A stretch of 64,000 nucleotides of DNA from the human T2T-CHM13v2.0 reference genome, Homo sapiens, in the NCBI GenBank assembly GCA_009914755.4, contig CP068257.2, positions 43,808,001 through 43,872,000 of the forward strand. Direction: 5' to 3'. The notes beneath the pieces were generated by a model that ran no database searches, was not told where the DNA came from, and saw nothing but the letters and a program-made list of their open reading frames with translations. Both the position numbers and the translations under genes were made by a program. Positions 4,100-64,000 of this stretch are shown here, piece by piece; within the stretch, counting starts at the first letter, position 1, and each line of letters begins with the position of its first letter.

Positions 4100-5470
4100 T
4101 CTAATCCAATACTATGAACAAAATAGATGGCAGATGAAATTGAAAATTTCCTAGAAAGGTGCAAACTACTCAAACTGATTCAACAAGAAATAGACAATGT
4201 GAATAGATATATAACAAGTGAAGAGGTTGAATTAGTAATCCAAAAACACCCATAAAGAAAAGCCAAGGACCAGAGAGCTTCCCAGCTAAATTCTACCAAG
4301 CATTTAAAGAATTAAAACCAATTCTCACAAACTCTTTCAAAAGACTAGGAGAGTGGGAAATGCTTCTCAATTCATTTTATGAGACCAATATTACTCTGAT
4401 ACCATAATCAGACAAAGACATTGCCAAAAAAAGAAAATTGCAGACTAGTTTATCTTACGAATTATGGACACAGAAATCCTTGGTAGACTACTAGTAAATA
4501 AAATCCAGCAACATATAAAAAAAATTCACCATGGCTAAGTGGGATTTATCCCAGGAATTCAAGGTTGGTTTAACACTTGAAAATCAATGTAATACATCAT
4601 ATCAATAGAATAAAATATTAAAAACACCCAATCATCTCAATAGATGCAGAGAAAGTATTGGACAAAATTCAACACCATTCATGAAAAACACTTAACAAGC
4701 TGGTAAAGAGCATCTGTGACAGAGCCCACAGCTGACACCGTGCTTGTGGTGGAGGAGCGAATGCTTTCCTCCTAAGATCAGGAGCAAGACAAGGACGTTC
4801 CCTATTGCGCCTTCTGTTTAACATTGTACTGGAGGTTCTAGCCACGAAAGTTAGGCAAGAAGAAATAAAAGACATCCAGATTGGAAAGGAACAAGTAAAA
4901 CTGTATTTTTAGAGGCCAGATCTTATATATATATATATCATATATCATATATATCATATATCATATGTATATTTAAAAGTAAAAGTTCTAACCTCTAAAA
5001 AGTTTTTTATTGTTCCTCTAAAATTACAGTTTTTTCTAAGTAATCCACAAAAAAACTATTAGAACCAATAAATGAGCTCAACAAGGTTGCAGGGTATAAA
5101 ATCAGTATAGAAAAATCTATTGTATTTATTTTGCAATGAACAATCCAAAAATGAAATTAAGAAAGAAAAATCTGTTTACAACAGCATCAACAAGAACTTA
5201 TACTCTGAAAACTACAAAGCAACATTGAAAGTAATTAAGGAAGATCTAAATAAATGGAAAGTTATCCCATGTTTATGGATTGGAAGACAGAATACTCCCT
5301 AAATCAACTAGAGTCCACACAACTCCTGCCAGAATCCCCACTGGCTATAGAAATTGTCAAAGTGACCCCAATACTTAAATTGAATTTCAAGGAACCCAGA
5401 GTGGCCAAAGCAATCCTGGAGAAGAACAAAATCGGGGGACCTCTTGGCTCTCGAACTTCTTAGAGTCTTT
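4100..5470 (+). mobile_element. Old L1 ORF2 fragment (endonuclease-RT region), sense orientation
   Basis: Reads as L1 ORF2 in sense: 'ccaaggaccagagagcttcccagctaaattctaccaa', 'cattttatgagaccaatattactctgataccataatcagacaaagaca', 'atctcaatagatgcagagaaagtattggacaaaattcaacacc', 'aaataaatggaaagttatcccatgtttatggattggaagac'. Confidence 0.8.
4921..4976. repeat. (ATATATC)n/(TA)n simple repeat inside the L1 fragment
   Basis: 'tatatatatatatatcatatatcatatatatcatatatcatatgtatat'. Confidence 0.8.
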
Positions 5471-5984
5471 GAAAATATCTGCTTTGTTTTGGGTAGAGCA
5501 TGGATGGTTCCCTTAGAGCCTATAGAGCACATTGAGGTCTTTTGGTTCGCCCTCAGTGAACTTTATCACATCAAGCAGGAGATGTCGGTGAGCCTCGCTG
5601 CCCTGCTGTGCTCCACCCATTGGCCCCCCTTGCAGCAGCATTCAGGAGAAGACAGAGGCAGCGTCTTCTGCCAGCCTCCTCGGACTGGAAGGAGTAACAA
5701 GGCTTTGAAGGCATGCAGGAATAACACCCACACAGAGCCCCAGGGGACATGGATCGAGGTCTGAAAAGCATTTCTTCCCACCCTCTGCTGAGTCACCTGG
5801 ACTGCCAGAGGTAGAGCTGGCATAGGGAGTTTGCCAGAAGACATCAGGAAGAAACCTCTATTTTCTCTACAAACATCCTTTGAGAACATTTCAAACCTGC
5901 ATTGACGTTGATACGATGATCAGAAAACGCTCATACACACCTTCCATTCGACTCACAAGCAAACACTTGCCACATTTTTCCCAG

Positions 5985-6300
5985 GCACTCCCTTTCTCTC
6001 CATCTGTGTCCATATCCACACACACGCATATCCACATGCACAGGTATCCATGCGTGTGCACACAAGAATATCTACATGCACCTCCACATGCGTACATATC
6101 CGCACACATCCGTGATGCATATCCATGTGTGCACATGTACATACCCATGCACACATTCACACATGCTCATCTGTATGCACACATAATCCACATGCAGTCC
6201 ACACACACAGATATCCATGCATGCATGTATCCATATCCACACATCCGTGTACACGCACACACGTGTGCTTCTGCATACCCACATGCAAGTACAGACGCTC
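5985..6300. repeat. CA/TG-rich imperfect low-complexity tract (CACACATG-like)
   Basis: Runs of cacaca, catgca and cacatg. Produces His/Thr/Cys-rich pseudo-ORFs on both strands. Confidence 0.7.
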
Positions 6301-9989: not shown

Positions 9990-11140
9990 TCTGAGAGTGC
10001 AAGTACATGGTGAGTGTGCTTGCCTGTGTGCGTGTGTGTGTGAGCATGCATGGCAGAGCTGAGCATGCATATGCACTCTGTGACATGTGTAAGCATGTAT
10101 GTGAGCTTGTGTATGCATGTATTCATGTGTGACGTGTGTGTATATATGTGAGCTTGTGTATGCATGTGAGTACTCACGTGTGACATGTGAGCATATATGT
10201 ACGTGTGTGTTTCTGTATGCATGTGTGTATTCACGTGACGTGAGCATGCATGTACATATGTGATTGTGTATGCATGTGAGCATTCATGTGACACATGTAA
10301 GCATGTATGTACATGTGGGGGCTTGTGTATGCATGTGAGCATTTGTATCTGACATGTAAGCATGTGTGTGTGAGCTTGTGTATGCATGTATTCATGTGTG
10401 ACATGTGTGAGCATGTATGTGAGTTTGTGTATGCATGAATATTCACATGTGACGTGTGAGCATATATGTACGTGTGATTGTGTATGCATGTGAGTATTCA
10501 CTGACGTGTGAGCATGCATGTACATATGTGATTGTGTATGCATGTGAGCATGTATGACATGTGTAAACATGTATGTATGTGGGGCTTGTGTATGCATGTG
10601 AGTATTCACATGTGACATGTGAGCATGTATGTACATGTGTGTGAGTATTCACATGTGACATGTGAGCATGTATGTACATGTGTGACCTTGTGTGTGCATG
10701 AGTATTCACATGTGACATGTGAGCCTATATGTATGTGTGTGATTGCGAGTATTCATGTGTGACATGTAAGCATGTATGTACATGTGTGAGCTTGTGTATG
10801 CATGTGAGCATTCATGTATGACATGTAAGCATTATGTATGTGTGTGGGCTTGTGTATGCGAGTATTCACATGTGACATGTGTGAGCATGTATGTGTGTGT
10901 GATTGTGTATGCATGTATTCATGTGTGACATGTGAGCATGTATGTACATGTGTGTGCTTGTGTATGCATATGAGCATTCATGTCTGGCACGTACGCTTAT
11001 ATGTACATGTGTGGGGGCTTGTGTATGTGAGTATTCACATGTGACATATGGCATAGCTAAGCATGCATGTGCATGTGTTCATGCATGAGCAGGAGTGAGC
11101 ATACATATATGTGTGCATATGTGGGTGTTCGTGTGTGAGC
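9990..11140. repeat. Minisatellite with a compound unit of 43-57 bp ('agtattcacatgtgacatgtgagcatgtatgtacatgtgtg' with or without 'accttgtgtgtgcatg'), about 25 copies
   Basis: The anchor 'agtattcaca' recurs at intervals of 43 and 57 bp. The array is rich in CATGTG/ACATGT palindromes. Confidence 0.85.
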
Positions 11141-28147: not shown

Positions 28148-28512
<365 letters not shown>

Positions 28513-28639: not shown

Positions 28640-28940
28640 GGGCTGGGGCTGGGGCCCTGCTGGGCGTGGGTGGCGTGCAGCAGGCCGTGTGCTGCTGGGC
28701 GTGGGTGGCGCGCTACAGGCTTCGTGCTGCTGGGCCTGGGTGGCGTGCTACGGGCTTGTGCTGCTGGGTGTGGGTGGCGCGCTACGGGCCTTGTGCTGCT
28801 GGGCCTGGGTGGCGCGCTACGGGCCGTGTGCTGCTGGGCCTGGGTGGCGCACTACGGGCCTTGTGCTGCTGGGCGTGGGTGGCGTGCAGCAGGCCGTGTG
28901 CTGCTGGGCGTGGGTGGCGCGCTATGGGCCGTGTGCTGAG
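28640..28940. repeat. GC-rich minisatellite, ~35-bp unit x ~9 (gtgctgctgggcctgggtggcgcgctacgggcctt)
   Basis: The anchor 'gtgctgctggg' recurs at 34-35 bp spacing. Confidence 0.9.
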
Positions 28941-29654: not shown

Positions 29655-30240
<586 letters not shown>

Positions 30241-32430: not shown

Positions 32431-32795
32431 CGTGAACATGGACCCACAGCCTCGCTCCTGGGGGCGTGGGCAGGAGACGCCGTGGACGTGGACCCACAGC
32501 CTCGCTCCTGGGGGCGTGGGCAGGAGACGCCGTGGACGTGGACCCACAGCCTCGCTCCTGGGGGCGTGGGCAGGAGACGCCGTGGACGTGGACCCACAGC
32601 CTCGCTCCTGGGGGCGTGGGCAGGAGACGCCGTGGACGTGGACCCACAGCCTCGCTCCTGGGGGCGTGGGCAGGAGACGCCGTGGACGTGGACCCACAGC
32701 CTCGCTCCTGGGGGCGTGGGCAGGAGACGCCGTGGACGTGGACCCACAGCCTCGCTCCTGGCGGCGTGGGCAGGAGACACCGTGGCTGGACTGTG
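32431..32795. repeat. Tandem repeat, 50-bp unit x ~7 (gacccacagcctcgctcctgggggcgtgggcaggagacgccgtggacgtg)
   Basis: The anchor 'gacccacagc' recurs every 50 bp. The ORF track shows a 50-aa periodic pseudo-protein. Confidence 0.9.
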
Positions 32796-40795: not shown

Positions 40796-41834
40796 GTACA
40801 AGCAGAATCCCTGGCACATCAGTCCCCTGCCCCTGGTGCCCACTCAGTGCTCGGACCCCCAAAGAGGGTGGCAGCCCCACGGTCGAGAGAGTGAGCTCTC
40901 TTGGGGCTGGCCTTGACCCCCACTCCTGCCATCTGTCCATCCGTCCTGCCGGAATCGCGGGCAGCAGCCTCTGTCACTCTGGCGAGGTGGCTTCGGCCCT
41001 TGTCACTTTTGTGATGTGGCTTCCGCCGAGCTCTGGTCTGCCGGTGAACTGAGAGTAGACGCGCCCTGGAAGCTGAGCTCGTCTGGAAACAAGCTCCGTG
41101 TGGCAAGCGCGATAAAGCAGCTCCAGGAGCTTTGGGAGGAGGGGCTGGGCCACAGCAGGTGGAGAGGCTGCCCGTGGCCTGGGGAGGGCCCTGAGCTGGG
41201 CCCCCCAACATCCCCCCATAGGGGAGCCCCATCCACCCGTCCCGCAGGCTCATGAGCATCTGGGGGCACTCGGAAGGAGCGCTGAAGGCAGCCCGGGTGT
41301 CCTTGGCGGCCCTGGCCTGGCCCAGAGTCTGCTCAGACCCTCTGGACTCAGGGCAGCTGCTCTCCATGGACCCAGCCTTCCTTCGGGCAGCCTGAGGTCT
41401 GGGCCACAGCCTGCTTGACCAGACAATTTATCTGACACCCCCCCAACGACCCACTTCCTCCTTCTGTTCTGTGGAAATTGAGCTGGAGGAGGAGCTAGAA
41501 CCCTGCAGAGGAGGGGCTGGGAGCCGGGTCTGGGCCTCCAGTCAGCATCTGTGCCGACCCCACCACAGACGCCCCCGGAGGTGCCCTCGAGGATCCAGGC
41601 TTCCGTGGGCCGCCCACTCGAATCATGTCCAAAACGTCAGGAGCTCCTCACCTTGGGCTGGACGGGGTTGGCACTAACGGGGAACTTTCCCCAGAACATG
41701 GCCAAGCTCCAGGATGGGGGTGATGAGGGAAGGAAGGCCAGTGGGGAGAGGAGTGAGGAAGAGGACAGCTGCGAGTCAGGTGGTGAGAGCACTTGGAGGG
41801 GCTGAGAGGACATGGGCTGGGAGTGAATGCATGT

Positions 41835-42790
41835 GCACATATACACACACACCTCTCCAGCATATGTACACATGCACACACACACCTCTCCAGCATATGT
41901 ACACATGCACACACACCTCTCCAGCATATGTACACATGCACACACACACCTCTCCAGCATATGTACACATGCACACACCTCTCCAGCATATGTACACATG
42001 CACACACCTCTCCAGCATATGTACACATGCACATACACACCTCTCCAGCATATGTACACACACACACACCTCTCCAGCATATGTACACACACACACACCT
42101 CTCCAGCATATGTGCACACGCACACACACCTCTCCAGCGTATGTACACACACACCTCTCCAGCATATGTACGCGCGCACACACCTCTCCAGCATATGTGC
42201 ACACACACACATAGGCACACACATCTCCAGCATATGTGCACACACACCTCTCCAGCATATGTGCACACACACACATAGGCACACACATCTCCAGCATATG
42301 TGCACACACACCTCCAGCATACATGCACACACATGCACACACACATCTCCAGCATATGTGCGCACACACATACACACACACACATCTCCAGCATGTGTGT
42401 ACACACACACACCTCTCCAGCATATGTGAGCACACACACACCTCTCCAGCATGTGTGCACACACATGCACGCCTCTCCAGCATATGTGCACACACACACA
42501 CGCACCTCTCCAGCATATGTGCACATACACATAGCCAGCACATGTGCACACAGCTCTCATGTATGTGCACGTGTATCTCTAGCATACATGCACACATGTA
42601 TCTGGTGTATATGTGCAACACATACATGTATCTGGGGCATGTGCACACGCATCTCTTATGTGCACATACACATGTATCTAGGTATGTGCCCACGTTTTTC
42701 TAGCACACATGCACACACATCTCTCTAGCATATGTACACACACATGTATTTGTAGTGTGTGTGCACATCTGTGTCTCTAGTATGTGTGCA
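41835..42790. repeat. Minisatellite, 31-36-bp unit (cacacacctctccagcatatgtacacatgca), about 22 clean copies and then degenerate copies to about 42790
   Basis: The anchor 'acctctccagcatatgt' recurs at 31-36 bp spacing. The large Cys/His-rich pseudo-ORFs 41637..42693 derive from it. Confidence 0.9.
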
Positions 42791-42965: not shown

Positions 42966-43326
<361 letters not shown>

Positions 43327-43520: not shown

Positions 43521-44220
43521 TTAGATTTTTAAAGACGATAAAAGGATGCCAGGCACTAAGACAGATTAAAGCCAAGAAAGTAAAATCTAAGATTCTCATG
43601 AAGTTAGCCCTCAAGTTAAGTGGGTGGTACATGGTGCCCACCTGTTAAGACCCAGCGTAGCTGTTGGAGGGTGGCTGCAGTGGAGACCCAGCCCTAGAAG
43701 GGAGGAGACAGGAGGCAGTCGAGGATCACCTTGGCGGGTGGAGGGCGGGGAAAGCTCTGGCTTGGAGGCCCAGCCCCTGTGGGGGACATGGGAAGCAGGA
43801 AGGACCCTTCCCCACAGAGGGGGTTTCCTTCCTCCAGCTGGGCCTGTGACCATATCAAGGCAGCGGGTCACATTCCTGCCCCATTTGTGGACAGTGCTGG
43901 GCTCACACTATCTCATTCCGCTCTGTCCCGAGCCTGGGAAGGAACCCTGGGCCTCTCCGTCTACAGCCACGGAAACCGAGGCTCAGGGAGCTTGTGGCTG
44001 CGAGGAGAGGGGTGGTGCAGCTGGGCCACGTCACAGCGGGACCCCTGCCTCAGGGCCTCCCTCCCTCACGCCCCCCACACCGGGCTCTCACCTCACACTC
44101 CAGGTGGCTGGGGCCTTGGGTCACCGATGGCTCCAGCACATGCCTCCGGGCTCGCCTGCTTCTCACGGCTTTCGGACTAATAGAGTCACCGCAATGCCTG
44201 TGTCTACCCTAGCCCCAGTG

Positions 44221-44497
44221 GTCCCAGGGTCCTGAGCCTCCTCTCCTCTCTCCTCTCTTCTCCCCTTGCCTGCCGGGGAGCCAGGGCTGGTCCCAGGGTC
44301 CTGAGCCTCCTCTCCTCTCTCCTCTCTTCTCCCCTCGCCTCCCGGGGAGCCAGGGCTGGTCCCAGGGTCCTGAGCCTCCTCTCCTCTCTCCTCTCTTCTC
44401 CCCTCGCCTCCCGGGGAGCCAGGGCTGGTCCCAGGGTCCTGAGCCTCCTCTCCTCTCTCCTCTCTTCTCCCCTCGCCTGCCCGGGAGCCAGGGCTGG
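44221..44497. repeat. Pyrimidine-rich tandem repeat, 69-bp unit x 4 (gtcccagggtcctgagcctcctctcctctctcctctcttctcccctcgcctcccggggagccagggctg)
   Basis: The anchor 'gtcccagggt' recurs every 69 bp. A 23-aa periodic pseudo-ORF lies on the minus strand. Confidence 0.9.
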
Positions 44498-47754: not shown

Positions 47755-48000
47755 CCTCCTTTTCCCCGACTTCCCCCTCCCCCACACTGCCTCCCCCACT
47801 TCCCCCTCCCCCACTTCCACCTGCCCCACACCTCCTCCCCGACTTCCCCCTCCCCCACTTCCCCCTGCCCCACACCTCCTCCCCCACACCCTCCCCCACT
47901 TCCCCGTCCCCCACACCTCCTCCCCCACTCCCCACTGCCCCCGACTCCCCCCTCCCCCCCCTCCCCCCGACTCCCCCCTCCCCCACTCCTCCATCCCTCC
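47755..48000. repeat. Polypyrimidine C-rich tandem tract ((c)ttcccc(c)tcccccac(acc)tcctcccc reiterated); homopurine on the opposite strand
   Basis: Directly visible. It gives poly-Pro and Gly/Glu pseudo-ORFs on the two strands. Confidence 0.9.
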
Positions 48001-48143
48001 ACAGCCCCTGCTCAGGCCCACAGGGGTGAGAGAGAGAAGTCCAGGCCATCGCCACGTCCACGGGTGCCCCGGACTCCTCGTGGGGGTCCCTGCATTCCTG
48101 GGCGTGTGGCCAATGCCCTGCGTCCTCCATGTGACCCTTTCAG

Positions 48144-48215
48144 GGAGAAGTTGGAGCAGATGGAGTCCCCGGGTTCCCCGGCCTCCCTGGCAGAGAGGGC
48201 ATTGCTGGGCCCCAG
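48144..48215 (+). CDS. COL18A1: COL18A1 exon 21 (72 bp): [24 protein letters not shown]
   Basis: tgacccttttcag|GGAGAAGTT...GGGCCCCAG|gtgagttgc. Confidence 0.88.
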
Positions 48216-48285
48216 GTGAGTTGCCTTGGTGGGCCCAGGGTGCAGGGGGGGCGTGGAGCCCTGAAGGGACTATGCCAAGATGAAA

Positions 48286-48598
48286 GCTGGCACGAGATGT
48301 GCCCTCGTGGGTCCCTGGGCCTCCATGTGCCCTCGTGGGTCCCTGGGCCTCCATGTGCCCTCGTGGGTTCCTGGGCCTCCATGTGCCCTCCCGGGTCCCT
48401 GGGCCTCCGTGTGCCCTCCCGGGTCCCTGGGCCTCCGTGTGCCCACTCCCGGGTCTCTGGGCCTCCGTGTGCCCTCCTGGGTCTCCGTGTGCCCTCTCAG
48501 GTCCCTGGGCCTCCGTGTGCCCTCCCGGGTCCCTGGGCCTTCGTGTGCCCTCCCAGGTCTCTGGGCCTCCGTGTGCCCACTCCCGGGTCTCTGAGCGC
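48286..48598. repeat. Tandem repeat, 28-30-bp unit x ~10 (gtgccctcgtgggtccctgggcctccat)
   Basis: The anchor 'gccctcgtgg' recurs every 28 bp. Later copies are 30 bp (gtgcccactcccgggtctctgggcctccgt). Confidence 0.9.
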
Positions 48599-48767
48599 CA
48601 GGAGTTAAGTATAAGTCTCCGTCAGGGCTCTTGGTGGCTGCCTCCCTCCCAGGCCCCAGCCGGTCGGGAAATAAAGAACCCCACATCTTCATCAGAGCCA
48701 TCCCTCACGGGGGGCCAGGGGCTCCTGTTTCTGTTGGTGATGAACCATTTCCTTCCTGTCTCTCCAG

Positions 48768-55624: not shown

Positions 55625-56267
55625 GGACCACCAGGTGAGCAACTCTGGACATCCCAGGCAGGAGAGCCATGGCGTGGCCAGCACTGAAGTGTGGTCACAC
55701 CTAGAGCCGCCACCACAAGCAGGTCCTGGACCCTCACTGGGTGGTGACCACCTCACCCTGCGGGAGGAAGGAAGCCCCTTCTGGGTTGATGGGGGCCTCA
55801 TAGGACCTGGATTTGGGGGCGAGGGTGGCTGCAGGGCACAGGCCCAGCAAGATAGCCCCATCACCTCCTGAGGAGCAGATGGCTGCCCTTCCATGCTAGA
55901 CCCAGGTGGGCACTGCGCAGAGACACAGCAGCTTCAGTGTCCTGAGATGCCCCCTCCCCTCCACGGGGCCGGGGGTCGGCACTGGAGGACTCTCTGTCGA
56001 GAAACTCTCCAGGGTTTCATGTGGGAAGGAGGCGTTGCCCGACAGGCCGTCTGGAGGGTGAGCCCAGCACCCCTGCTCCCCCAAAGGACAAGAATTCCCC
56101 CCTGAGCCCCACCTCCATTGAGGGTGGCAGGGCTGCTTGGATGTCCTGCCAAGACCACTGAGAACAGCTGGATAAAATGTGAGAAAACCACTGTTTGAGG
56201 ATGTCTGGGGGCTGGCAGAGCAGAAGCCCAGAGAGCCAGGCTAGCCTCGGGCGCCTTTCACCACCAG

Positions 56268-56480
56268 GGTCCCCTCTCGCCGCCACGGTCCCCTCTCGCC
56301 GCCAGGGTCCCCTCTCACCGCCAGGGTTCCCTCTCGCCACCACGGTCCCCTCTCGCCGCCAGGGTCCCCTCTCGCCGCCAGGGTCCCCTCTCGCCGCCAC
56401 GGTCCCCTCTCGCCGCCAGGGTCCCCTCTCGCCGCCACGGTCCCCGCTCGCCGCCAGGGTCCCCTCTCGCTGCCAGGGTC
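56268..56480. repeat. Tandem repeat, 19-bp unit x ~11 (ggtcccctctcgccgcca(c/g))
   Basis: The anchor 'ggtcccctct' recurs every 19 bp. Confidence 0.9.
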
Positions 56481-57334
56481 CTCTGCAGAGGAGGCCGCCA
56501 TACCTGCTCTTGCTGGGGCTGCACTCTGGGGTGGGAAGGGACCAGGCAGGCAGAGGCCGAGTCTGGGCCGGGACATCCTTAAGGCCTGTGGAGGCAAAGG
56601 CAGGCAGAAAGCAAGCGGGAAGATGGAAGATGCGCCCATGCCAGCCTTGGATCTCTCAGCGTCACACACGACGCCCAGGAAGGAGTGAATGATGCACAGA
56701 TGACCAGAAACCAGGAGAAGAGGCCAGTGACACACCAGACCAGGAGGCCCAGCTCATGGGGTCATCGGACCCACCTTGAACTCTGAAGGTCACACATTCA
56801 AAAGCCACAGGAAGTCTGGAGATGGCAGCAGAGAGCTGGGAAGCTCAGAGGTGTCAGGATGAACCTGGGGCTGAAGGCGGAACAGTTGGAGATTGAGACC
56901 TGTGTATAGGTTTTGGTCGACGTGGGATTGCTTGTCCCTGGGAGCCAGAACGAGGGCTCCGAGGGCTCTAGAGGGAACAGTGTTTGCAGGCGGAATGGCT
57001 GATGCTCTTCCAAAGCCAAGGAAGGCTCAGAGCATTCCCCTCATTCGAAGGATCAACAATTAGAGTGACGAGATTTCTCAACAAAACGGGAGAAGCCAGA
57101 AGACCATAAATGGTTTCCAAAATATCCAAGAAAGTCAATTGCCAGTGTAGACTCCGACAGCCAGTGGTACTCCCGTGGCCTTCAGAACGAAGATGACATG
57201 CAGGCCAGCCACTCCAGACCCGAGCTGTGTCGGCGGTGGAGGGTATTTCAGGGGGAAGACAAGGCCAAGGGAAAGGAGTGCAGAGATGGGGAGAGACAAC
57301 GCTGGCAGGAACCGGCGTCCCAGCGACAGGGAGG

Positions 57335-57905
57335 TCAGAGGCTCCCTCGGGAACCAGCGTGGGCTGCCCCACATGGCATCCCAGGAACAGTGGGGTCAGA
57401 GGCTCCCGTGGGAACCCGCGTGGGCTGCCCCACATGGCATCCCAGGAACAGTGGGGTCAGAGGCTCCCTCGGGAACCCGCGTGGGCTGCCCCGCATGGCA
57501 TCCCAGGAACAGTGGGGTCAGAGGCTCCCTCAGGAACCTGCGTGGGCTGCCCCGCATGGCATCCCAGGAACAGTGGGGTCAGAGGCTCCCGTGGGAACCC
57601 GCGTGGGCTGCCCCACATGGCATCCCAGGAACAGTGGGGTCAGAGGCTCCCTCGGGAACCCGCGTGGGCTGCCCCGCATGGCATCCCAGGAACAGTGGGG
57701 TCAGAGGCTCCCTCAGGAACCTGCGTGGGCTGCCCCGCATGGCATCCCAGGAACAGTGGGGTCAGAGGCTCCCGTGGGAACCCGCGTGGGCTGCCCCACA
57801 TGGCATCCCAGGAACAGTGGGGTCAGAGGCTCCCTCGGGAACCCGCGTGGGCTGCCCCGCATGGCATCCCAGGAACAGTGGGGTCAGAGGCTCCCGCAGG
57901 AACCG
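57335..57905. repeat. Tandem repeat, 61-bp unit x ~9.4 (gggaacccgcgtgggctgccccacatggcatcccaggaacagtggggtcagaggctccctc)
   Basis: In the 60-column layout the repeat shifts by exactly one base per line, so the period is 61. A 61-aa periodic pseudo-ORF is present at 57175..58124. Confidence 0.92.
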
Positions 57906-58329
57906 GCACAGGCTGCACAGCATGGTGTCCCATCGTCAGTGCAATTAGAGGTTCCCGTGGTCTCAGCGCCCTGGGGAGTGGTGGTAGTTCTCACTATATT
58001 GGACGGTGAGGTTGGAGAGGAATGCAGAGCTAACACTGGTGGAGAGGCAGGAGGGCAGGCAGGACGGCACACACACAGGACGTTTAAAACACACAGAGTA
58101 GATCCAAAAGAAGGCAAAACATGAGAGAAAAAGGAATGCAGAACACGTGGGATGAATAGAAACTAGGGAATAAACAGTAGATTTAGGTCCCGATACATCT
58201 ACAGGTGCTGTAAGTATGACGAGGGTAGATACATCCATTGAAGGACAGACATTGTCAATGGGATATGGCTAAACCATGTGCTGCTTACAAGAGACGCTCC
58301 CCGAACGTGAGGGCTGGAGAGGTCGAGGC

Positions 58330-61300
58330 ACCCAGAGGCTGGTGTGGGTTTGGGTGTGTGTGGAGTGTGTGTATGTGGGTGTGCTGAGTGTGTGCAGTGT
58401 GGGGGTGTGGGTGGAGTGTGGAGTGTGTGCATGTGGGTGTGTAGTGTGGGGGTGTATAGTGTGGGTGTGTGTGGAGTGTGTATGTGGCTGGGTTGGGTGT
58501 ATAGTGTGGAGGTGTGAGGGGGTGTGTGGAGTGTTTGTGTTGGGTGTGTAGTGTGGAGGTGTGAGGGGGTGTGTGGAGTGTGCATATGTGGGTGTTGGGT
58601 GTGTAGTGGGGGTGTGTGGAGTGTGTATATGTGGGTGTGTAGTGGGGGTGTGAGGGGTGTGGAGTGTGCATATGTGGGTGTTGGGTGTGTAGTGTGTGAG
58701 GGGGTGGGGGTGTGTGGAGTGTGTGTATGTGGGTGTTGGGTGTGTGGTGTGGGGTGTGTGTGGAGTGTGGCTATGGGGGTGCTGGGTGTGTAGTGTGGGG
58801 GTGTGGTTTGGTGTGTGTGTGTTGGGTGTGTAGTGTGGGGGTGTGGTTTGGTGTGTGTGTGTTGGGTGTGTAGTGTGGGGGTGTGGTTTGGTGTGTGTTG
58901 GGTGTGTAGTGTGGGGGTGTGGTTTGGTGTGTGTTGGGTGTGTAGTGGGGTGTGGTTTGGTGTGTGTTGGGTGTGTAGTGTGGGGGTGTGGTTTGGTGTG
59001 TTGGGTGTGTAGTGTGGGGGTGTGGTTTGGTGTGTGTGTGTTGGGTGTGTAGTGTGGGGGTGTGGTTTGGTGTGTGTTGGGTGTGTAGTGTGGGGGTGTG
59101 GTTTGGTGTGTGTTGGGTGTGTAGTGTGGGGGTGTGGTTTGGTGTGTGTGTGTGTTGGGTGTGTAGTGTGGGGGTGTGGTTTGGTGTGTGTTGGGTGTGT
59201 AGTGTGGGGGTGTGGTTTGGTGTGTGTTGGGTGTGTAGTGTGGGGTTGTGGTTTGGTGTGTGTGTGTTGGGTGTGTAGTGTGGGGGTGTGGTTTGGTGTG
59301 TGTGTGTTGGGTGTGTAGTGTGGGGGTGTGGTTTGGTGTGTGTGTGTTGGGTGTGTAGTGTGGGGGTGTGGTTTGGTGTGTGTTGGGTGTGTAGTGTGGG
59401 GGTGTGGTTTGGTGTGTTGGGTGTGTAGTGTGGGGGTGTGGTTTGGTGTGTGTGTGTTGGGTGTGTAGTGTGGGGGTGTGGTTTGGTGTGTGTTGGGTGT
59501 GTAGTGTGGGGGTGTGGTTTGGTGTGTGTGTGTTGGGTGTGTAGTGTGGGGGTGTGGTTTGGTGTGTTGGGTGTGTAGTGTGGGGGTGTGGTTTGGTGTG
59601 TTGGGTGTGTAGTGTGGGGGTGTGGTTTGGTGTGTGTGTGTTGGGTGTGTAGTGTGGTGTGGTTTGGTGTGTGTGTGTTGGGTGTGTAGTGTGGGGGTGT
59701 GGTTTGGTGTGTGTTGGGTGTGTAGTGTGGGGGTGTGGTTTGGTGTGTGTTGGGTGTGTAGTGTGGGGGTGTGGTTTGGTGTGTTGGGTGTGTAGTGTGG
59801 GGGTGTGGTTTGGTGTGTGTGTTGGGTGTGTAGTGTGGGTGTGGTTTGGTGTGTGTTGGGTGTGTAGTGGGGTGTGGTTTGGTGTGTGTTGGGTGTGTAG
59901 TGTGGGGGTGTGGTTTGGTGTGTTGGGTGTGTAGTGTGGGGGTGTGGTTTGGTGTGTGTGTTGGGTGTGTAGTGTGGGGGTGTGGTTTGGTGTGTGTTGG
60001 GTGTGTAGTGTGGGGGTGTGGTTTGGTGTGTGTGTTGGGTGTGTAGTGTGGGGGTGTGGTTTGGTGTGTGTGTGTGTAGTGTGGGGGTGTGGTTTGGTGT
60101 GTTGGGTGTGTAGTGTGGGGGTGTGGTTTGGTGTGTGTGTGTTGGGTGTGTAGTGTGGGGGTGTGGTTTGGTGTGTGTTGGGTGTGGTTTGGTGTGTGTT
60201 GGGTGTGTAGTGTGGGGGTGTGGTTTGGTGTGTTGGGTGTGTAGTGTGGGGGTGTGGTTTGGTGTGTGTGTTGGGTGTGTAGTGTGGGGGTGTGGTTTGG
60301 TGTGTGTTGGGTGTGTAGTGTGGGGGTGTGGTTTGGTGTGTGTTGGGTGTGTAGTGTGGGGGTGTGGTTTGGTGTGTGTTGGGTGTGTAGTGTGGGGGTG
60401 TGGTTTGGTGTGTGTTGGGTGTGTAGTGTGGGGGTGTGGTTTGGTGTGTGTTGGGTGTGTAGTGTGGGGGTGTGGTTTGGTGTGTTGGGTGTGTAGTGTG
60501 GGGGTGTGGTTTGGTGTGTGTTGGGTGTGTAGTGTGGGGGTGTGGTTTGGTGTGTGTGTTGGGTGTGTAGTGTGGGGGTGTGGTTTGGTGTGTGTTGGGT
60601 GTGTAGTGTGGGGGTGTGGTTTTGTGTGTGTGTGTTGGGTGTGTAGTGTGGGGGTGTGGTTTTGTGTGTGTGTGTTGGGTGTGTAGTGTGGGGGTGTGGT
60701 TTGGTGTGTGTTGGGTGTGTAGTGTGGGGGTGTGGTTTGGTGTGTTGGGTGTGTAGTGTGGGGGTGTGGTTTGGTGTGTGTTGGGTGTGTAGTGTGGGGG
60801 TGTGGTTTGGTGTGTGTTGGGTGTGTAGTGTGGGGGTGTGGTTTTGTGTGTGTTGGGTGTGTAGTGTGGGGGTGTGGTTTGGTGTGTGTTGGGTGTGTAG
60901 TGTGGGGGTGTGGTTTTGTGTTTGTGTGTTGGGTGTGTAGTGTGGGGGTGTGGTTTTGTGTGTGTGTGTTGGGTGTGTAGTGTGGGGGTGTGGTTTGGTG
61001 TGTGTTGGGTGTGTAGTGTGGGGGTGTGGTTTGGTGTGTGTTGGGTGTGTATTGTGGGGGTGTGGTTTTGTGTGTGTGTGTTGGGTGTGTAGTGTGGGGG
61101 TGTGGTTTGGTGTGTGTTGGGTGTGTAGTGTGGGGGTGTGGTTTGGTGTGTGTTGGGTGTGTAGTGTGGGGGTGTGGTTTGGTGTGTTGGGTGTGTAGTG
61201 TGGGGGTGTGGTTTGGTGTGTGTTGGGTGTGTAGTGTGGGGGTGTGGTTTGGTGTGTTGGGTGTGTAGTGTGGGGGTGTGGTTTGGTGTGTGTGTGTTGG

Positions 61301-61460
61301 GTGTGTAGTGTGGGGGTGTGGTTTGGTGTGTGTTGGGTGTGTAGTGTGGGGGTGTGGTTTGGTGTGTGTGTGTTGGGTGTGTAGTGTGGGGGTGTGGTTT
61401 GGTGTGTGTTGGGTGTGTAGTGTGGGGGTGTGGTTTGGTGTGTGTGTGTGTGTGTGTGCA
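58330..61460. repeat. Very large GT/G-run minisatellite, 36-40-bp unit (ttgggtgtgtagtgtgggggtgtggtttggtgtgtg(tg)n), about 80 copies over 3.1 kb, ending in (GT)n
   Basis: The anchor 'gttgggtgtg' recurs every 36-40 bp across the whole span. The 916-aa minus-strand ORF 58771..61521 is its CA-strand translation. Confidence 0.95.
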
Positions 61461-61964: not shown

Positions 61965-62330
61965 GGTCTCCCAGGTGGTGGGGCCTCCACAGCCGGTCAC
62001 CTCCCTCTGCAGAAGGACCCCCAGGGGCTCCACAGCCGGTCACCTCCCTCTGCAGAAGGACCCCCAGGGGCTTCAAAGCCGGTCACCTCCCTCTGCAGAA
62101 GGACCCCCAGGGGCTCCACAGCCGGTCACCTCTCTCTGCAGAAGGACCCCCAGGGGCTTCAAAGCCGGTCACCTCCCTCTGCAGAAGGACCCCCAGGGGC
62201 TTCAAAGCCGGTCACCTCCCTCTGCAGAAGGACCCCCAGGGGCTCCACAGCCGGTCACCTCCCTCTGCAGAAGGACCCCCAGGGGCTCCACAGCCGGTCA
62301 CCTCCCTCTGCAGAAGGACCCGGAGCAGGG
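61965..62330. repeat. Tandem repeat, 43-bp unit x ~8.4 (cacagccggtcacctccctctgcagaaggacccccaggggctc)
   Basis: The anchor 'cacagccggt' / 'caaagccggt' recurs every 43 bp. The periodic pseudo-ORFs 61590..62600 derive from it. Confidence 0.92.
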
Positions 62331-63204
62331 CCCAGCCCGAGAGGGAGCACGGGTCCTGACAGCAGCAGTGACCTCCAACCCCAGGGACAGCTCCTGTGGG
62401 ATGGGGGGCCCTGGGGGTGTGGAGCCACGTGCTCCAAAGCTTCTGGGTTACAGGGCATGCCTCCAGGGGTGAGGTGGTCCCCACCCCGGTCACGGTTTCA
62501 GGGGAACAGTCACAGGAGAAGGTTTGCCCAGGGCCGTCTAAGGTCCCACCTGGAAGGAGAAGGGGTTTTGTCATCTCCGTTGACAAAATTACAGCTTTAA
62601 GTAGTACCTGTTTCTACACATCAGCCTAAGATGTTAAAGAACAAACAGCATTTAAAGAACAACAAACAGTTATTTGATGAAAATAGATGGGAAGAAGTAT
62701 TAAACATCAAAAATGAGTGAAGGGAAATTGCGTATGTTTTATATATAAAAATAGCAAGGATCAAGAAAGTCCAAAAATCCAAAGTTAATTCTTTGCAAAG
62801 GCGAACAACATTCCTGCACCTCTGCCGGGACTGAGGAAAAGGAGAGAAGCAGCAACAAGCAGGGATTTCAGCAAAGGGCTCCTCCGTGGTCTGGAAGGAG
62901 CCACCTGGAACTGCCACAGCTTCACCCTTGGAGAGGGTGGAGGGACCCTCAAGTCAGGGCCAAGACACAGCTGCCTGCCCACCCTGGGAGGAGGCAGAGG
63001 AGAGATGGGAAGGGCAGGACGCTGGGAGGAAAGAAGCGCGTTGCTCTTTTCTCAGCACGTCTCCCACGTAAGCCCCACAAGTGGATCTGCAGGTGAACTC
63101 TCAGGATGAGTAAGTCAATGTACCGAAGTCACCAGATGGAAGGGCAGTCTAGAAAAACCACCACCGAGTCCTAAGCAATTAAAAATGAAGTTTTAAAAAG
63201 GCAC

Positions 63205-63612
63205 CATTGTGAATAATGTCACAATAAACATACGTGTGCATGTGTCTTTATAGCAGCATGATTTATAGTCCTTTGTGTATATACCCAGTAATGGGATGGC
63301 TGGGTCAAATGGTATTTCTAGTTCTAGATCCCTGAGGAATCGCCACACTGACTTCCACAATGGTTGAACTAGTTTACAGTCCCACCAACAGTGTAAAAGT
63401 GTTCCTATTTCTCTACATCCTCTCCGGCACCTGTTGTTTCCTTACTTTTTAACGATCGCCATTCTAACTGGTGTGAGATCTCATTGTGGTTTTGATTTGC
63501 ATTTCTCTGATGGCCAGTGATGATGAGCATTTTTTCATGTGTTTTTTGGCTGCATAAATGTCTTCTTTTGAGAAGTGTCTGTTCATGTCCTTTGCCCACT
63601 TTTTGATGGGGT
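63205..63612 (-). mobile_element. L1PA (young primate L1, about L1PA4-7) ORF2 3' segment, inverted: the 5' part of a twin-primed insertion
   Basis: The reverse complement reads '...aaaaaatgctcatcatcactggccatcagagaaatgcaaatcaaaaccacaatgagatctcacaccagttagaatggcgatcgttaaaaag..gacccagccatcccattactgggtatatacacaaaggactataaatcatgctgctataaagacacatgcacacgtatgtttattgtgacattattcacaatgg'. Confidence 0.88.
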
Positions 63613-64000
63613 TGTTTGTGGCACATATACACCATGGAATACTACGCAGCCATAAAAAATGATGAGTTCATGTCCTTTGTAGGGACATGGATGAAATTGG
63701 AAATCATCATTCTCAGTAAACTATTGCAAGAACAAAAAACCAAACACCGCATATTCTCACTCATAGGTGGGAACTGAACAATGAGATCACATGGACACAG
63801 GAAGGGGAACATCACACTCTGGGGACTGTTGTGGGGTGGGGGGAGGGGGGAGGGATAGCATTGGGAGATATACCTAATGCTAGATGACGAGTTAGTGGGT
63901 GCAGCACACCAGCATGGCACATGTATACATATGTAACTAACCTGCACATCATGCACATGTACCCTAAAACTTAAAGTATAATAATAAATTTAAAAAATTT
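63613..64000 (+). mobile_element. L1PA 3' end (ORF2 terminus and 3' UTR), sense, truncated by the window end as the A-rich tail begins
   Basis: 'tggcacatatacaccatggaatactacgcagccataaaaaatgatgagttcatgtcctttgtagggacatggatgaaattggaaa..gggaggggggagggatagcattgggagatatacctaatgctagatgacgagttagtgggtgcagcacaccagcatggcacatgtatacatatgtaactaacctgcacat..ccctaaaacttaaagtataataataaa'. Confidence 0.92.

What the first reader, a model, noticed from the sequence alone, without database searches (positions are those of the whole stretch)
63205..64000. Young L1PA insertion with the twin-priming 5'-inversion signature
The interval 63205-63612 is L1 ORF2 positions about 5330-5750 in antisense. It is followed directly by 63613-64000, which carries positions about 5790 to the end in sense, running into the poly-A at the window edge. 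The inverted piece's downstream L1 end (about 5750) faces the 5' flank, and its upstream L1 end (about 5330) abuts the start of the sense piece (about 5790), with about 40 bp missing. This is exactly the configuration produced by twin priming during target-primed reverse transcription. Low divergence from the L1PA consensus implies a primate-specific and relatively recent event.
Basis: partly seen in the sequence, partly recalled or inferred. Interest (0 to 1): 0.5.

Follow-up and report, generated by a model that had tools for sequence, protein, structure and literature searches.

The report
Ordinary 5'-inverted, truncated L1 insertion
The last 800 bases of the window are a dead, truncated primate LINE-1 copy whose front half was flipped during insertion, a well-known by-product of L1 retrotransposition ("twin priming") seen in about one in five L1 insertions, so it is real but ordinary.

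Summary
Window 63206-63619 (minus strand) encodes L1 ORF2p residues 1065-1205. Window 63617-63988 (plus strand) carries ORF2p residues 1223-1275, the stop codon and the whole 3' UTR.

The two pieces abut and overlap by 3 nt (TGT). They are consecutive stretches of L1 with 56 nt missing between them, and the inverted piece's downstream L1 end faces the 5' flank. The inverted piece has no 3' end or poly-A of its own. The two pieces do not differ detectably in divergence (10/414 versus 6/366 substitutions from a consensus of the nearest L1 copies, Fisher p = 0.61), and both carry young-L1PA character states.

The 3' UTR has the GAG trinucleotide, which marks L1PA2 or older, not L1HS. I infer an L1PA2/L1PA3-age insertion, roughly 8-12 Myr old.

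- The gap is 56 nt, not about 40.
- Absolute L1 coordinates depend on the reference used.
- The window does not end in a clean poly-A. After the L1 terminus come TTTAAAAAATTT and then the window edge.

The target-site duplication cannot be checked. Interest is low and the kind of feature is already known.

The parts
63195..63205 (+). Candidate 5' copy of the target-site duplication (AAAAAGGCACC). It is preceded by TTTT, so the bottom strand reads TTTTT/AAAA, which is like the L1 endonuclease consensus site.
   Evidence: Read directly from the sequence. This is inference only, because the 3' copy would lie beyond the window end.
63206..63619 (-). Inverted L1 segment covering ORF2 codons 1065-1205 (about L1.3 nt 5183-5601). 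It is inactivated by a 5-bp deletion near 63478-63480 and by an in-frame stop.
   Evidence: phmmer against PDB ORF2p, E = 5.8e-90, residues 1065-1205. blastn against the L1 consensus, positions 44-462, 96.4%. The frameshift is seen and the 5-bp deletion.
63617..63619 (.). Inversion junction. The 3 nt TGT can be assigned either to the inverted or to the non-inverted L1 segment (microhomology).
   Evidence: Position-by-position comparison of the window with antisense and sense L1 consensus. The overlap of the blastn matches is seen.
63617..63777 (+). Non-inverted L1 segment, coding part: ORF2 codons 1223-1275 and the TGA stop codon (63775-63777).
   Evidence: phmmer against PDB ORF2p, E = 1.2e-28, residues 1223-1275. 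ORF list.
63778..63988 (+). L1 3' UTR through the element's terminus. It carries the GAG diagnostic trinucleotide (in CTAGATGACGAGTTAGTGGG) and the AATAAA signal at 63983-63988.
   Evidence: blastn against the L1 consensus. Diagnostic string compared with 120 L1 copies. 3'-end alignment.
63989..64000 (+). A/T-rich sequence TTTAAAAAATTT after the L1 terminus. It is either a degenerate remnant of the poly-A tail or the start of the flank, and it is cut off by the window end.
   Evidence: Read directly from the sequence.

Best explanation
This is a single L1 retrotransposition event of an L1PA2/L1PA3-age element that was resolved by twin priming.

Proposed sequence of events:
1. L1 endonuclease nicked the bottom strand at a TTTT/A-like site. 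The likely site is between 63194 and 63195 in the pre-insertion sequence.
2. Reverse transcription was primed on the poly-A. It copied the L1 RNA from its 3' end back to about nt 5658 in L1.3 numbering. This product is the sense piece, 63617-63988.
3. After top-strand cleavage, the top-strand 3' end annealed inside the same RNA, about 56 nt further upstream. It primed a second cDNA that ran from about nt 5601 to about nt 5183. This product is the inverted piece, 63206-63619.
4. The two cDNA ends were joined at a 3-nt microhomology (TGT), and the 56 nt between the two priming regions were lost.

The product is a roughly 790-bp dead fragment. It has no promoter, it has only the last 211 codons of ORF2 in two oppositely oriented pieces, and it carries a frameshift and a stop. 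It has since decayed neutrally.

What is shown: the identity of both pieces, their orientation, the contiguity of their L1 coordinates, the junction microhomology, the lack of a separate 3' end, and the indistinguishable divergence of the two pieces.

What is inferred: the order of events in the mechanism, the endonuclease site and target-site duplication, and the age.
For: - ORF2p residues 1065-1205 are on the minus strand and residues 1223-1275 plus the stop codon are on the plus strand.
- In L1-consensus coordinates the pieces are 44-462 (inverted) and 519-899 (sense). That leaves 56 nt missing, with the higher-coordinate end of the inverted piece at the 5' flank.
- The matches overlap by 3 nt (TGT, 63617-63619).
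- There is no L1 similarity in the 800 bp left of 63206, and no other match to this part of L1 anywhere in the window.
- Substitutions relative to a consensus of the nearest L1 copies are 10/414 for the inverted piece and 6/366 for the sense piece (Fisher p = 0.61).
- Both pieces carry the character states of the youngest copies in the sample.
- Literature: 5' inversions occur in 18.4% of germline L1 polymorphisms. Of the 287 insertions with 5' inversions that were aligned, 46% have the two cDNA ends within 20 bp of each other on the L1 reference; the remainder were either further apart or overlapped by more than 20 bp (PMC12016303). [quoted passage not shown]
- In my own sample of other L1 3' ends, 3 of 43 evaluable copies showed the same arrangement, with gaps of 100, 179 and 2269 nt.
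Against: - The target-site duplication and a proper poly-A tail, both defining hallmarks, cannot be seen. The window ends 12 nt after the L1 terminus, and those 12 nt (TTTAAAAAATTT) are not pure poly-A.
- There is no convincing complementarity between the 5' flank end (…GGCACC) and the L1 sequence just downstream of the second priming site.
- A 56-nt gap is larger than the 20 bp or less that describes 46% of published cases.
- A 3-nt microhomology arises by chance in a few percent of junctions.
- The subfamily assignment rests on an improvised consensus built from copies chosen for closeness to the window, not on a curated library.
Confidence: 0.9

Rival explanations
1. A plain 5'-truncated L1 (about nt 5183 to the 3' end) inserted normally. 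Its 5' 420 bp were inverted later by an unrelated double-break rearrangement that also deleted 56 nt.
For: The final sequence would look the same. Without the target-site duplication or an orthologous uninverted allele, the window alone cannot exclude this formally. Microhomology at the junction is also typical of end joining.
Against: One breakpoint would have to coincide exactly with the L1/flank boundary at 63205/63206. 5' inversion during insertion is common, at 18-22% of L1 insertions, whereas small spontaneous inversions confined to one repeat are rare.
Confidence: 0.04
2. These are two independent L1 insertions, an antisense one and a sense one, lying side by side, with the 3' part of the antisense copy deleted afterwards.
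For: L1 copies are abundant and do nest or abut. The improvised subfamily analysis has limited resolution in the ORF2 piece, with only 11 informative columns.
Against: - The antisense piece has no 3' UTR or poly-T to its left. TPRT insertions normally keep their 3' end.
- Its highest L1 coordinate lies only 56 nt from the lowest coordinate of the sense piece, which is a coincidence of the order of 1-2% for two unrelated fragments of a 6-kb element.
- The divergences are indistinguishable (p = 0.61).
- The pieces join directly, with microhomology and no intervening flank.
Confidence: 0.03
3. The two cDNAs were copied from two different L1 RNA molecules (a 'dual priming' or template-switch variant) rather than from one RNA.
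For: Dual priming has been proposed as giving similar architectures (PMC2837659). Sequence alone cannot tell two near-identical RNAs of the same subfamily apart.
Against: In dual priming as proposed, the second RNA anneals by its poly-A tail, so the inverted piece should start with poly-T at the 5' flank. Here the inverted piece starts inside ORF2. The near-contiguity of L1 coordinates is what a single template predicts.
Confidence: 0.03

Closest known systems
Twin-priming (5'-inverted) L1 insertions, Ostertag & Kazazian 2001 model
   Same: It has an inverted 5' segment and a non-inverted 3' segment from adjacent parts of the same L1. There is a small internal deletion (56 nt) and microhomology at the internal junction. 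The inverted segment is attached to the 5' flank by its downstream L1 end, and the non-inverted segment reaches the L1 3' terminus.
   Different: Nothing differs in kind. The target-site duplication and poly-A tail could not be observed because of the window edge. The gap of 56 nt is larger than the 20 bp or less that describes 46% of published cases, but it is within the range I saw in other copies (100 and 179 nt).
L1PA2/L1PA3 subfamilies of primate LINE-1
   Same: It has the ORF2 C-terminus and a 3' UTR with GAG at the Ta-diagnostic trinucleotide, the strings CTAGATGAC…TTAGTGGG and TAACTAACC, and the ATAATAATAAA terminus. These are shared with the youngest GAG-bearing copies in my sample. 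Divergence from the consensus is about 2%, against published ages of 7.6 Myr for L1PA2 and 12.5 Myr for L1PA3.
   Different: It is not L1HS, having neither ACA nor ACG. I could not distinguish L1PA2 from L1PA3 without a curated library. The element is a roughly 790-bp fragment with a frameshift and a stop, so it is not a functional member.
Poly(T)-headed L1 insertions (twin-priming variants / dual priming, Meyer et al. 2010)
   Same: These are also products of priming on both strands during TPRT.
   Different: Those have a 5' poly(T) and a very short or absent non-inverted portion. Here the inverted piece begins inside ORF2, and the non-inverted piece is 372 bp of L1 proper.

Membership tests
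LINE-1 (L1) retrotransposon copy | Sequence homologous to L1 ORF2p | tested here: met
   E = 5.8e-90 for residues 1065-1205 and E = 1.2e-28 for residues 1223-1275, against solved human ORF2p chains.
LINE-1 (L1) retrotransposon copy | L1 3' UTR ending in a polyadenylation signal and a poly-A tail | tested here: inconclusive
   The 3' UTR aligns to the L1 terminus, and AATAAA lies at 63983-63988. What follows is TTTAAAAAATTT and then the window end, so no clean poly-A is visible.
LINE-1 (L1) retrotransposon copy | Target-site duplication and an endonuclease-type target (TTTT/A) | not testable with these tools
   The 5' flank reads GTTTT|AAAAAGGCACC, which fits the consensus site. The 3' flank lies beyond base 64000. 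Locus-specific scans and exact-protein look-ups found no longer contig.
Twin-priming 5'-inverted L1 insertion | Two abutting segments of L1 in opposite orientation, with the non-inverted one reaching the L1 3' end | tested here: met
   63206-63619 is on the minus strand and 63617-63988 on the plus strand.
Twin-priming 5'-inverted L1 insertion | The inverted segment is the L1 sequence immediately upstream of the non-inverted one (small deletion or duplication at the break), with its downstream end facing the 5' flank | tested here: met
   The consensus coordinates are 44-462 (inverted) and 519-899 (sense), leaving 56 nt missing. Position 462 lies at window 63206, next to the flank.
Twin-priming 5'-inverted L1 insertion | The inverted segment lacks its own 3' UTR and poly-A (it is not a separate TPRT insertion) | tested here: met
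   There is no L1 similarity in 62400-63205, either against 321 kb of L1-containing loci or against the L1 consensus.
Twin-priming 5'-inverted L1 insertion | Both segments are of the same subfamily and age | tested here: met
   Substitutions are 10/414 versus 6/366 (Fisher p = 0.61). Both pieces are closest to the same young copies. Resolution is limited because no curated library was available.
Twin-priming 5'-inverted L1 insertion | One pair of target-site duplications brackets the whole structure | not testable with these tools
   The window ends 12 nt after the L1 terminus.
Twin-priming 5'-inverted L1 insertion | Microhomology at the internal junction (frequent, not obligatory) | tested here: met
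   The 3-nt TGT at 63617-63619 is shared by both alignments. This is weak evidence on its own.
L1HS (human-specific Ta / pre-Ta) | ACA or ACG trinucleotide in the 3' UTR | tested here: not met
   The window has GAG (…GATGACGAGTTAG…). GAG indicates L1PA2 or older (PMC7026601).

The most novel reading that the evidence does not exclude
The least ordinary reading that my evidence does not exclude is that the inversion is not a twin-priming product. It could instead be a later rearrangement, or a two-template event. The locus sits about 1.7 kb from a 3-kb GT-rich minisatellite in a very GC-rich, minisatellite-dense (possibly subtelomeric) region, and it could be structurally polymorphic among apes. 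Even then it would be a single neutral rearrangement of a dead repeat.
Probability: 0.07. Interest if true: 0.12.

Novelty: already known. Interest (0 to 1): 0.05.

Why it matters
It matters very little. Inverted L1 copies make up roughly a fifth of L1 insertions, and standard repeat masking annotates them routinely. This copy is a short, inactivated fragment with no promoter and no intact reading frame. Its only practical uses are as a phylogenetic presence/absence marker among apes, and as a reminder that annotation tools report such an event as two L1 hits that belong to one insertion.

Tried and rejected
1. Extending the locus past base 64000 to see the poly-A and the target-site duplication. 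None of these attempts found anything:
   - an exact scan for the inversion junction (GATGGGGTTGTTTGTGGCACATATACACC) in metagenome contigs and in genome contigs;
   - exact-protein look-ups of four locus-specific ORFs, namely the 76-aa ORF across the junction, the 104-aa ORF antisense to the 3' UTR (tried twice, once as a DNA reference and once as letters), and the 98-aa ORF in the flank.
2. No curated repeat library (RepeatMasker, Dfam or Repbase) is available. I replaced it with 120 L1 copies recovered as human or primate contamination in metagenome contigs and with a consensus built from the nearest copies. A first MAFFT alignment of all copies with their flanks was useless (2053 columns), so I replaced it with a reference-anchored projection.
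3. The original twin-priming paper (PMC311219) is not held. I used later open papers instead.
4. An Rfam scan of the whole window found nothing.
5. I considered and rejected a target-site duplication of TTTAAAAA (63192-63199 and 63989-63996). It would require a 3-nt poly-A, six unexplained bases (GGCACC) at the 5' junction and a poor endonuclease site.
6. I considered and rejected complementarity between the 5' flank and the L1 RNA at the second priming site. Only 1 of the last 4 bases matches.

Full report
**What is in the sequence**

The region 63206-64000 is LINE-1.
- Read on the minus strand, 63206-63619 translates to [30 protein letters not shown]…CTRMFIVTLFT, with one frameshift and one stop. 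This matches residues 1065-1205 of the solved human L1 ORF2 protein with E = 5.8e-90.
- Read on the plus strand, the ORF 63616-63777 ([18 protein letters not shown]…HRIFSLIGGN, then stop) matches ORF2p residues 1223-1275, the exact C-terminus, with E = 1.2e-28.

So the two pieces lie in opposite orientation. In protein terms they are consecutive, with residues 1206-1222 missing.

**DNA-level anatomy**

No repeat library was available. I therefore scanned metagenome contigs for a 26-mer from the sense piece and recovered 120 L1-bearing contigs, which are host-DNA contamination. Twenty-five of them span the whole region.

Against these copies, and against a consensus of the nearest ones:
- The reverse complement of the inverted piece aligns to consensus positions 44-462.
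- The sense piece aligns to positions 519-899.
- Fifty-six nucleotides of L1 (AGCAAAGACTTGG…GATTAAGAAAA) are therefore absent between the pieces.

The antisense match runs up to window base 63619 and the sense match starts at 63617. The trinucleotide TGT is thus shared by both, which is a 3-nt junction microhomology.

The higher-coordinate end of the inverted piece (position 462) sits at window 63206, against the 5' flank. Its lower-coordinate end (position 44) abuts the sense piece.

Taking the ORF2 start as nt 1991 in an L1.3-type element (my own knowledge), the pieces are about 5183-5601 and about 5658-6023. The stop codon falls at 5816-5818, which agrees with the stop at window 63775-63777.

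**Is the inverted piece an insertion of its own?**

It is not.
- The 920-nt L1 consensus finds no other match in the window apart from A-rich tails.
- The 806 bp left of 63206 have no similarity to any of the 321 kb of L1-containing loci.

So there is no antisense 3' UTR or poly-T belonging to the inverted piece.

**Same age?**

Relative to the consensus of the nearest copies:
- The inverted piece has 10 substitutions in 414 aligned bases, plus one 5-bp deletion.
- The sense piece has 6 substitutions in 366 bases.
- The difference is not significant (Fisher p = 0.61).

This consensus is built from copies chosen for closeness to the window, so it is a rough yardstick and not a curated one.

Several of these differences (consensus positions 76, 211, 627, 689) are shared with other young copies. 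They are therefore likely subfamily states rather than private mutations. At the 41 columns that vary among the younger copies, both pieces carry the states of the youngest group, although only 11 of those columns lie in the ORF2 piece.

**Subfamily and age**

- The 3' UTR reads CTAGATGACGAGTTAGTGGG. The trinucleotide is GAG, not the ACA or ACG of L1HS. In the literature GAG marks L1PA2 or older (PMC7026601).
- The surrounding string groups the element with the youngest GAG-bearing copies in my sample.
- Divergence is about 1.5-2%. Published subfamily ages are 7.6 Myr for L1PA2 and 12.5 Myr for L1PA3.
- From these I infer an insertion roughly 8-12 Myr old, which is an ape-lineage event and not a human-specific one.
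- That the window is primate is supported independently by Alu sequences at 30205-30240 and 43275-43310.

**Mechanism**

The arrangement is the textbook product of twin priming. [quoted passage not shown] The inverted cDNA is primed by the top-strand overhang at an internal site of the RNA (PMC2837659).

The pieces map onto the model as follows:
- The sense piece is the poly-A-primed cDNA.
- The inverted piece is the internally primed cDNA, attached to the 5' flank at its priming end.
- The two free cDNA ends were joined at TGT.

The 5' flank reads GTTTT|AAAAAGGCACC. This would give a bottom-strand TTTTT/AAAA nick site and an 11-bp target-site duplication. That is inference only, because the 3' copy would lie past the window edge.

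**How common is it?**

5' inversions were found in 18.4% of germline and 21.9% of somatic L1 insertions in a long-read survey. In 46% of the 287 inverted insertions aligned there, the two cDNA ends lay within 20 bp of each other on the L1 reference (PMC12016303).

As a control, I looked at my own sample of other L1 3' ends. Three of 43 evaluable copies had the same inverted-upstream arrangement, with L1 gaps of 100, 179 and 2269 nt. Two further hairpin-like cases look like assembly artefacts. The structure here is therefore ordinary.

**What could not be shown**

The L1 body ends at 63988 (AATAAA at 63983-63988). The remaining 12 bases are TTTAAAAAATTT. This may be a decayed tail or the flank. 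Neither a clean poly-A nor the target-site duplication can be seen.

Attempts to find a longer copy of the locus all failed. These were junction-specific scans of two collections and four exact-ORF look-ups.

**Rivals**

- A post-insertion inversion would need one breakpoint exactly at the L1/flank boundary.
- Two independent insertions would need a lost 3' end, a coordinate coincidence of 56 nt, matching ages and a seamless joint.
- Dual priming from a second RNA, as proposed, predicts a poly-T head, which is absent.

None of these is formally excluded without the flank or an orthologue. Together I give them about 10%.

**Verdict**

This is a known kind of feature. It has no sign of function: the fragment is about 790 bp long, has no promoter, and has a frameshift and a stop. 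Interest is low.

Noticed in passing
window 58342-61458: A GT-rich minisatellite of about 3.1 kb lies here, with units of 36 or 72 bp (TGGGTGTGTAGTGTGGGGGTGTGGTT…) in about 42-78 copies. It gives an extreme strand asymmetry (GC skew 0.74-0.87, AT skew about -0.58) and a spurious 916-aa ORF on the minus strand. Its G-runs could form G-quadruplexes. It lies only about 1.7 kb from the L1.
   Followed up: partly
window 57314-57932 and 61981-62321: Two further well-conserved minisatellites flank the GT-rich array. One has a 61-bp unit in 10 copies at 92% identity. The other has a 43-bp unit in about 8 copies at 96% identity.
   Followed up: no
whole window, e.g. 457-901, 10079-11054, 28657-28938, 32431-32785, 41829-42531, 44219-44497, 47763-48622, 56264-56481: The window is very GC-rich (mostly 0.55-0.67) and unusually dense in minisatellite arrays with units of 15-166 bp. 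This is the character of subtelomeric or otherwise VNTR-rich primate DNA. I did not establish the genomic location or gene content.
   Followed up: no
window 30205-30240 and 43275-43310 (minus strand): Alu 5' ends are present, with 1 and 3 mismatches to the Alu consensus head. This confirms a primate origin for the window. A-rich tails near 43150-43194 and 28148-28230 matched the poly-A of the L1 consensus.
   Followed up: partly
loci L094 (1-248) and L104 (252-509): Two metagenome contigs show L1 3' segments folded back on themselves, with about 250 nt of the same L1 coordinates in both orientations. These look like hairpin or chimeric assembly artefacts rather than twin priming.
   Followed up: no
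loci L001-L120: Public metagenome assemblies, including marine and human-gut projects, contain many contigs that are primate L1 elements, meaning host or laboratory DNA contamination.
   Followed up: no
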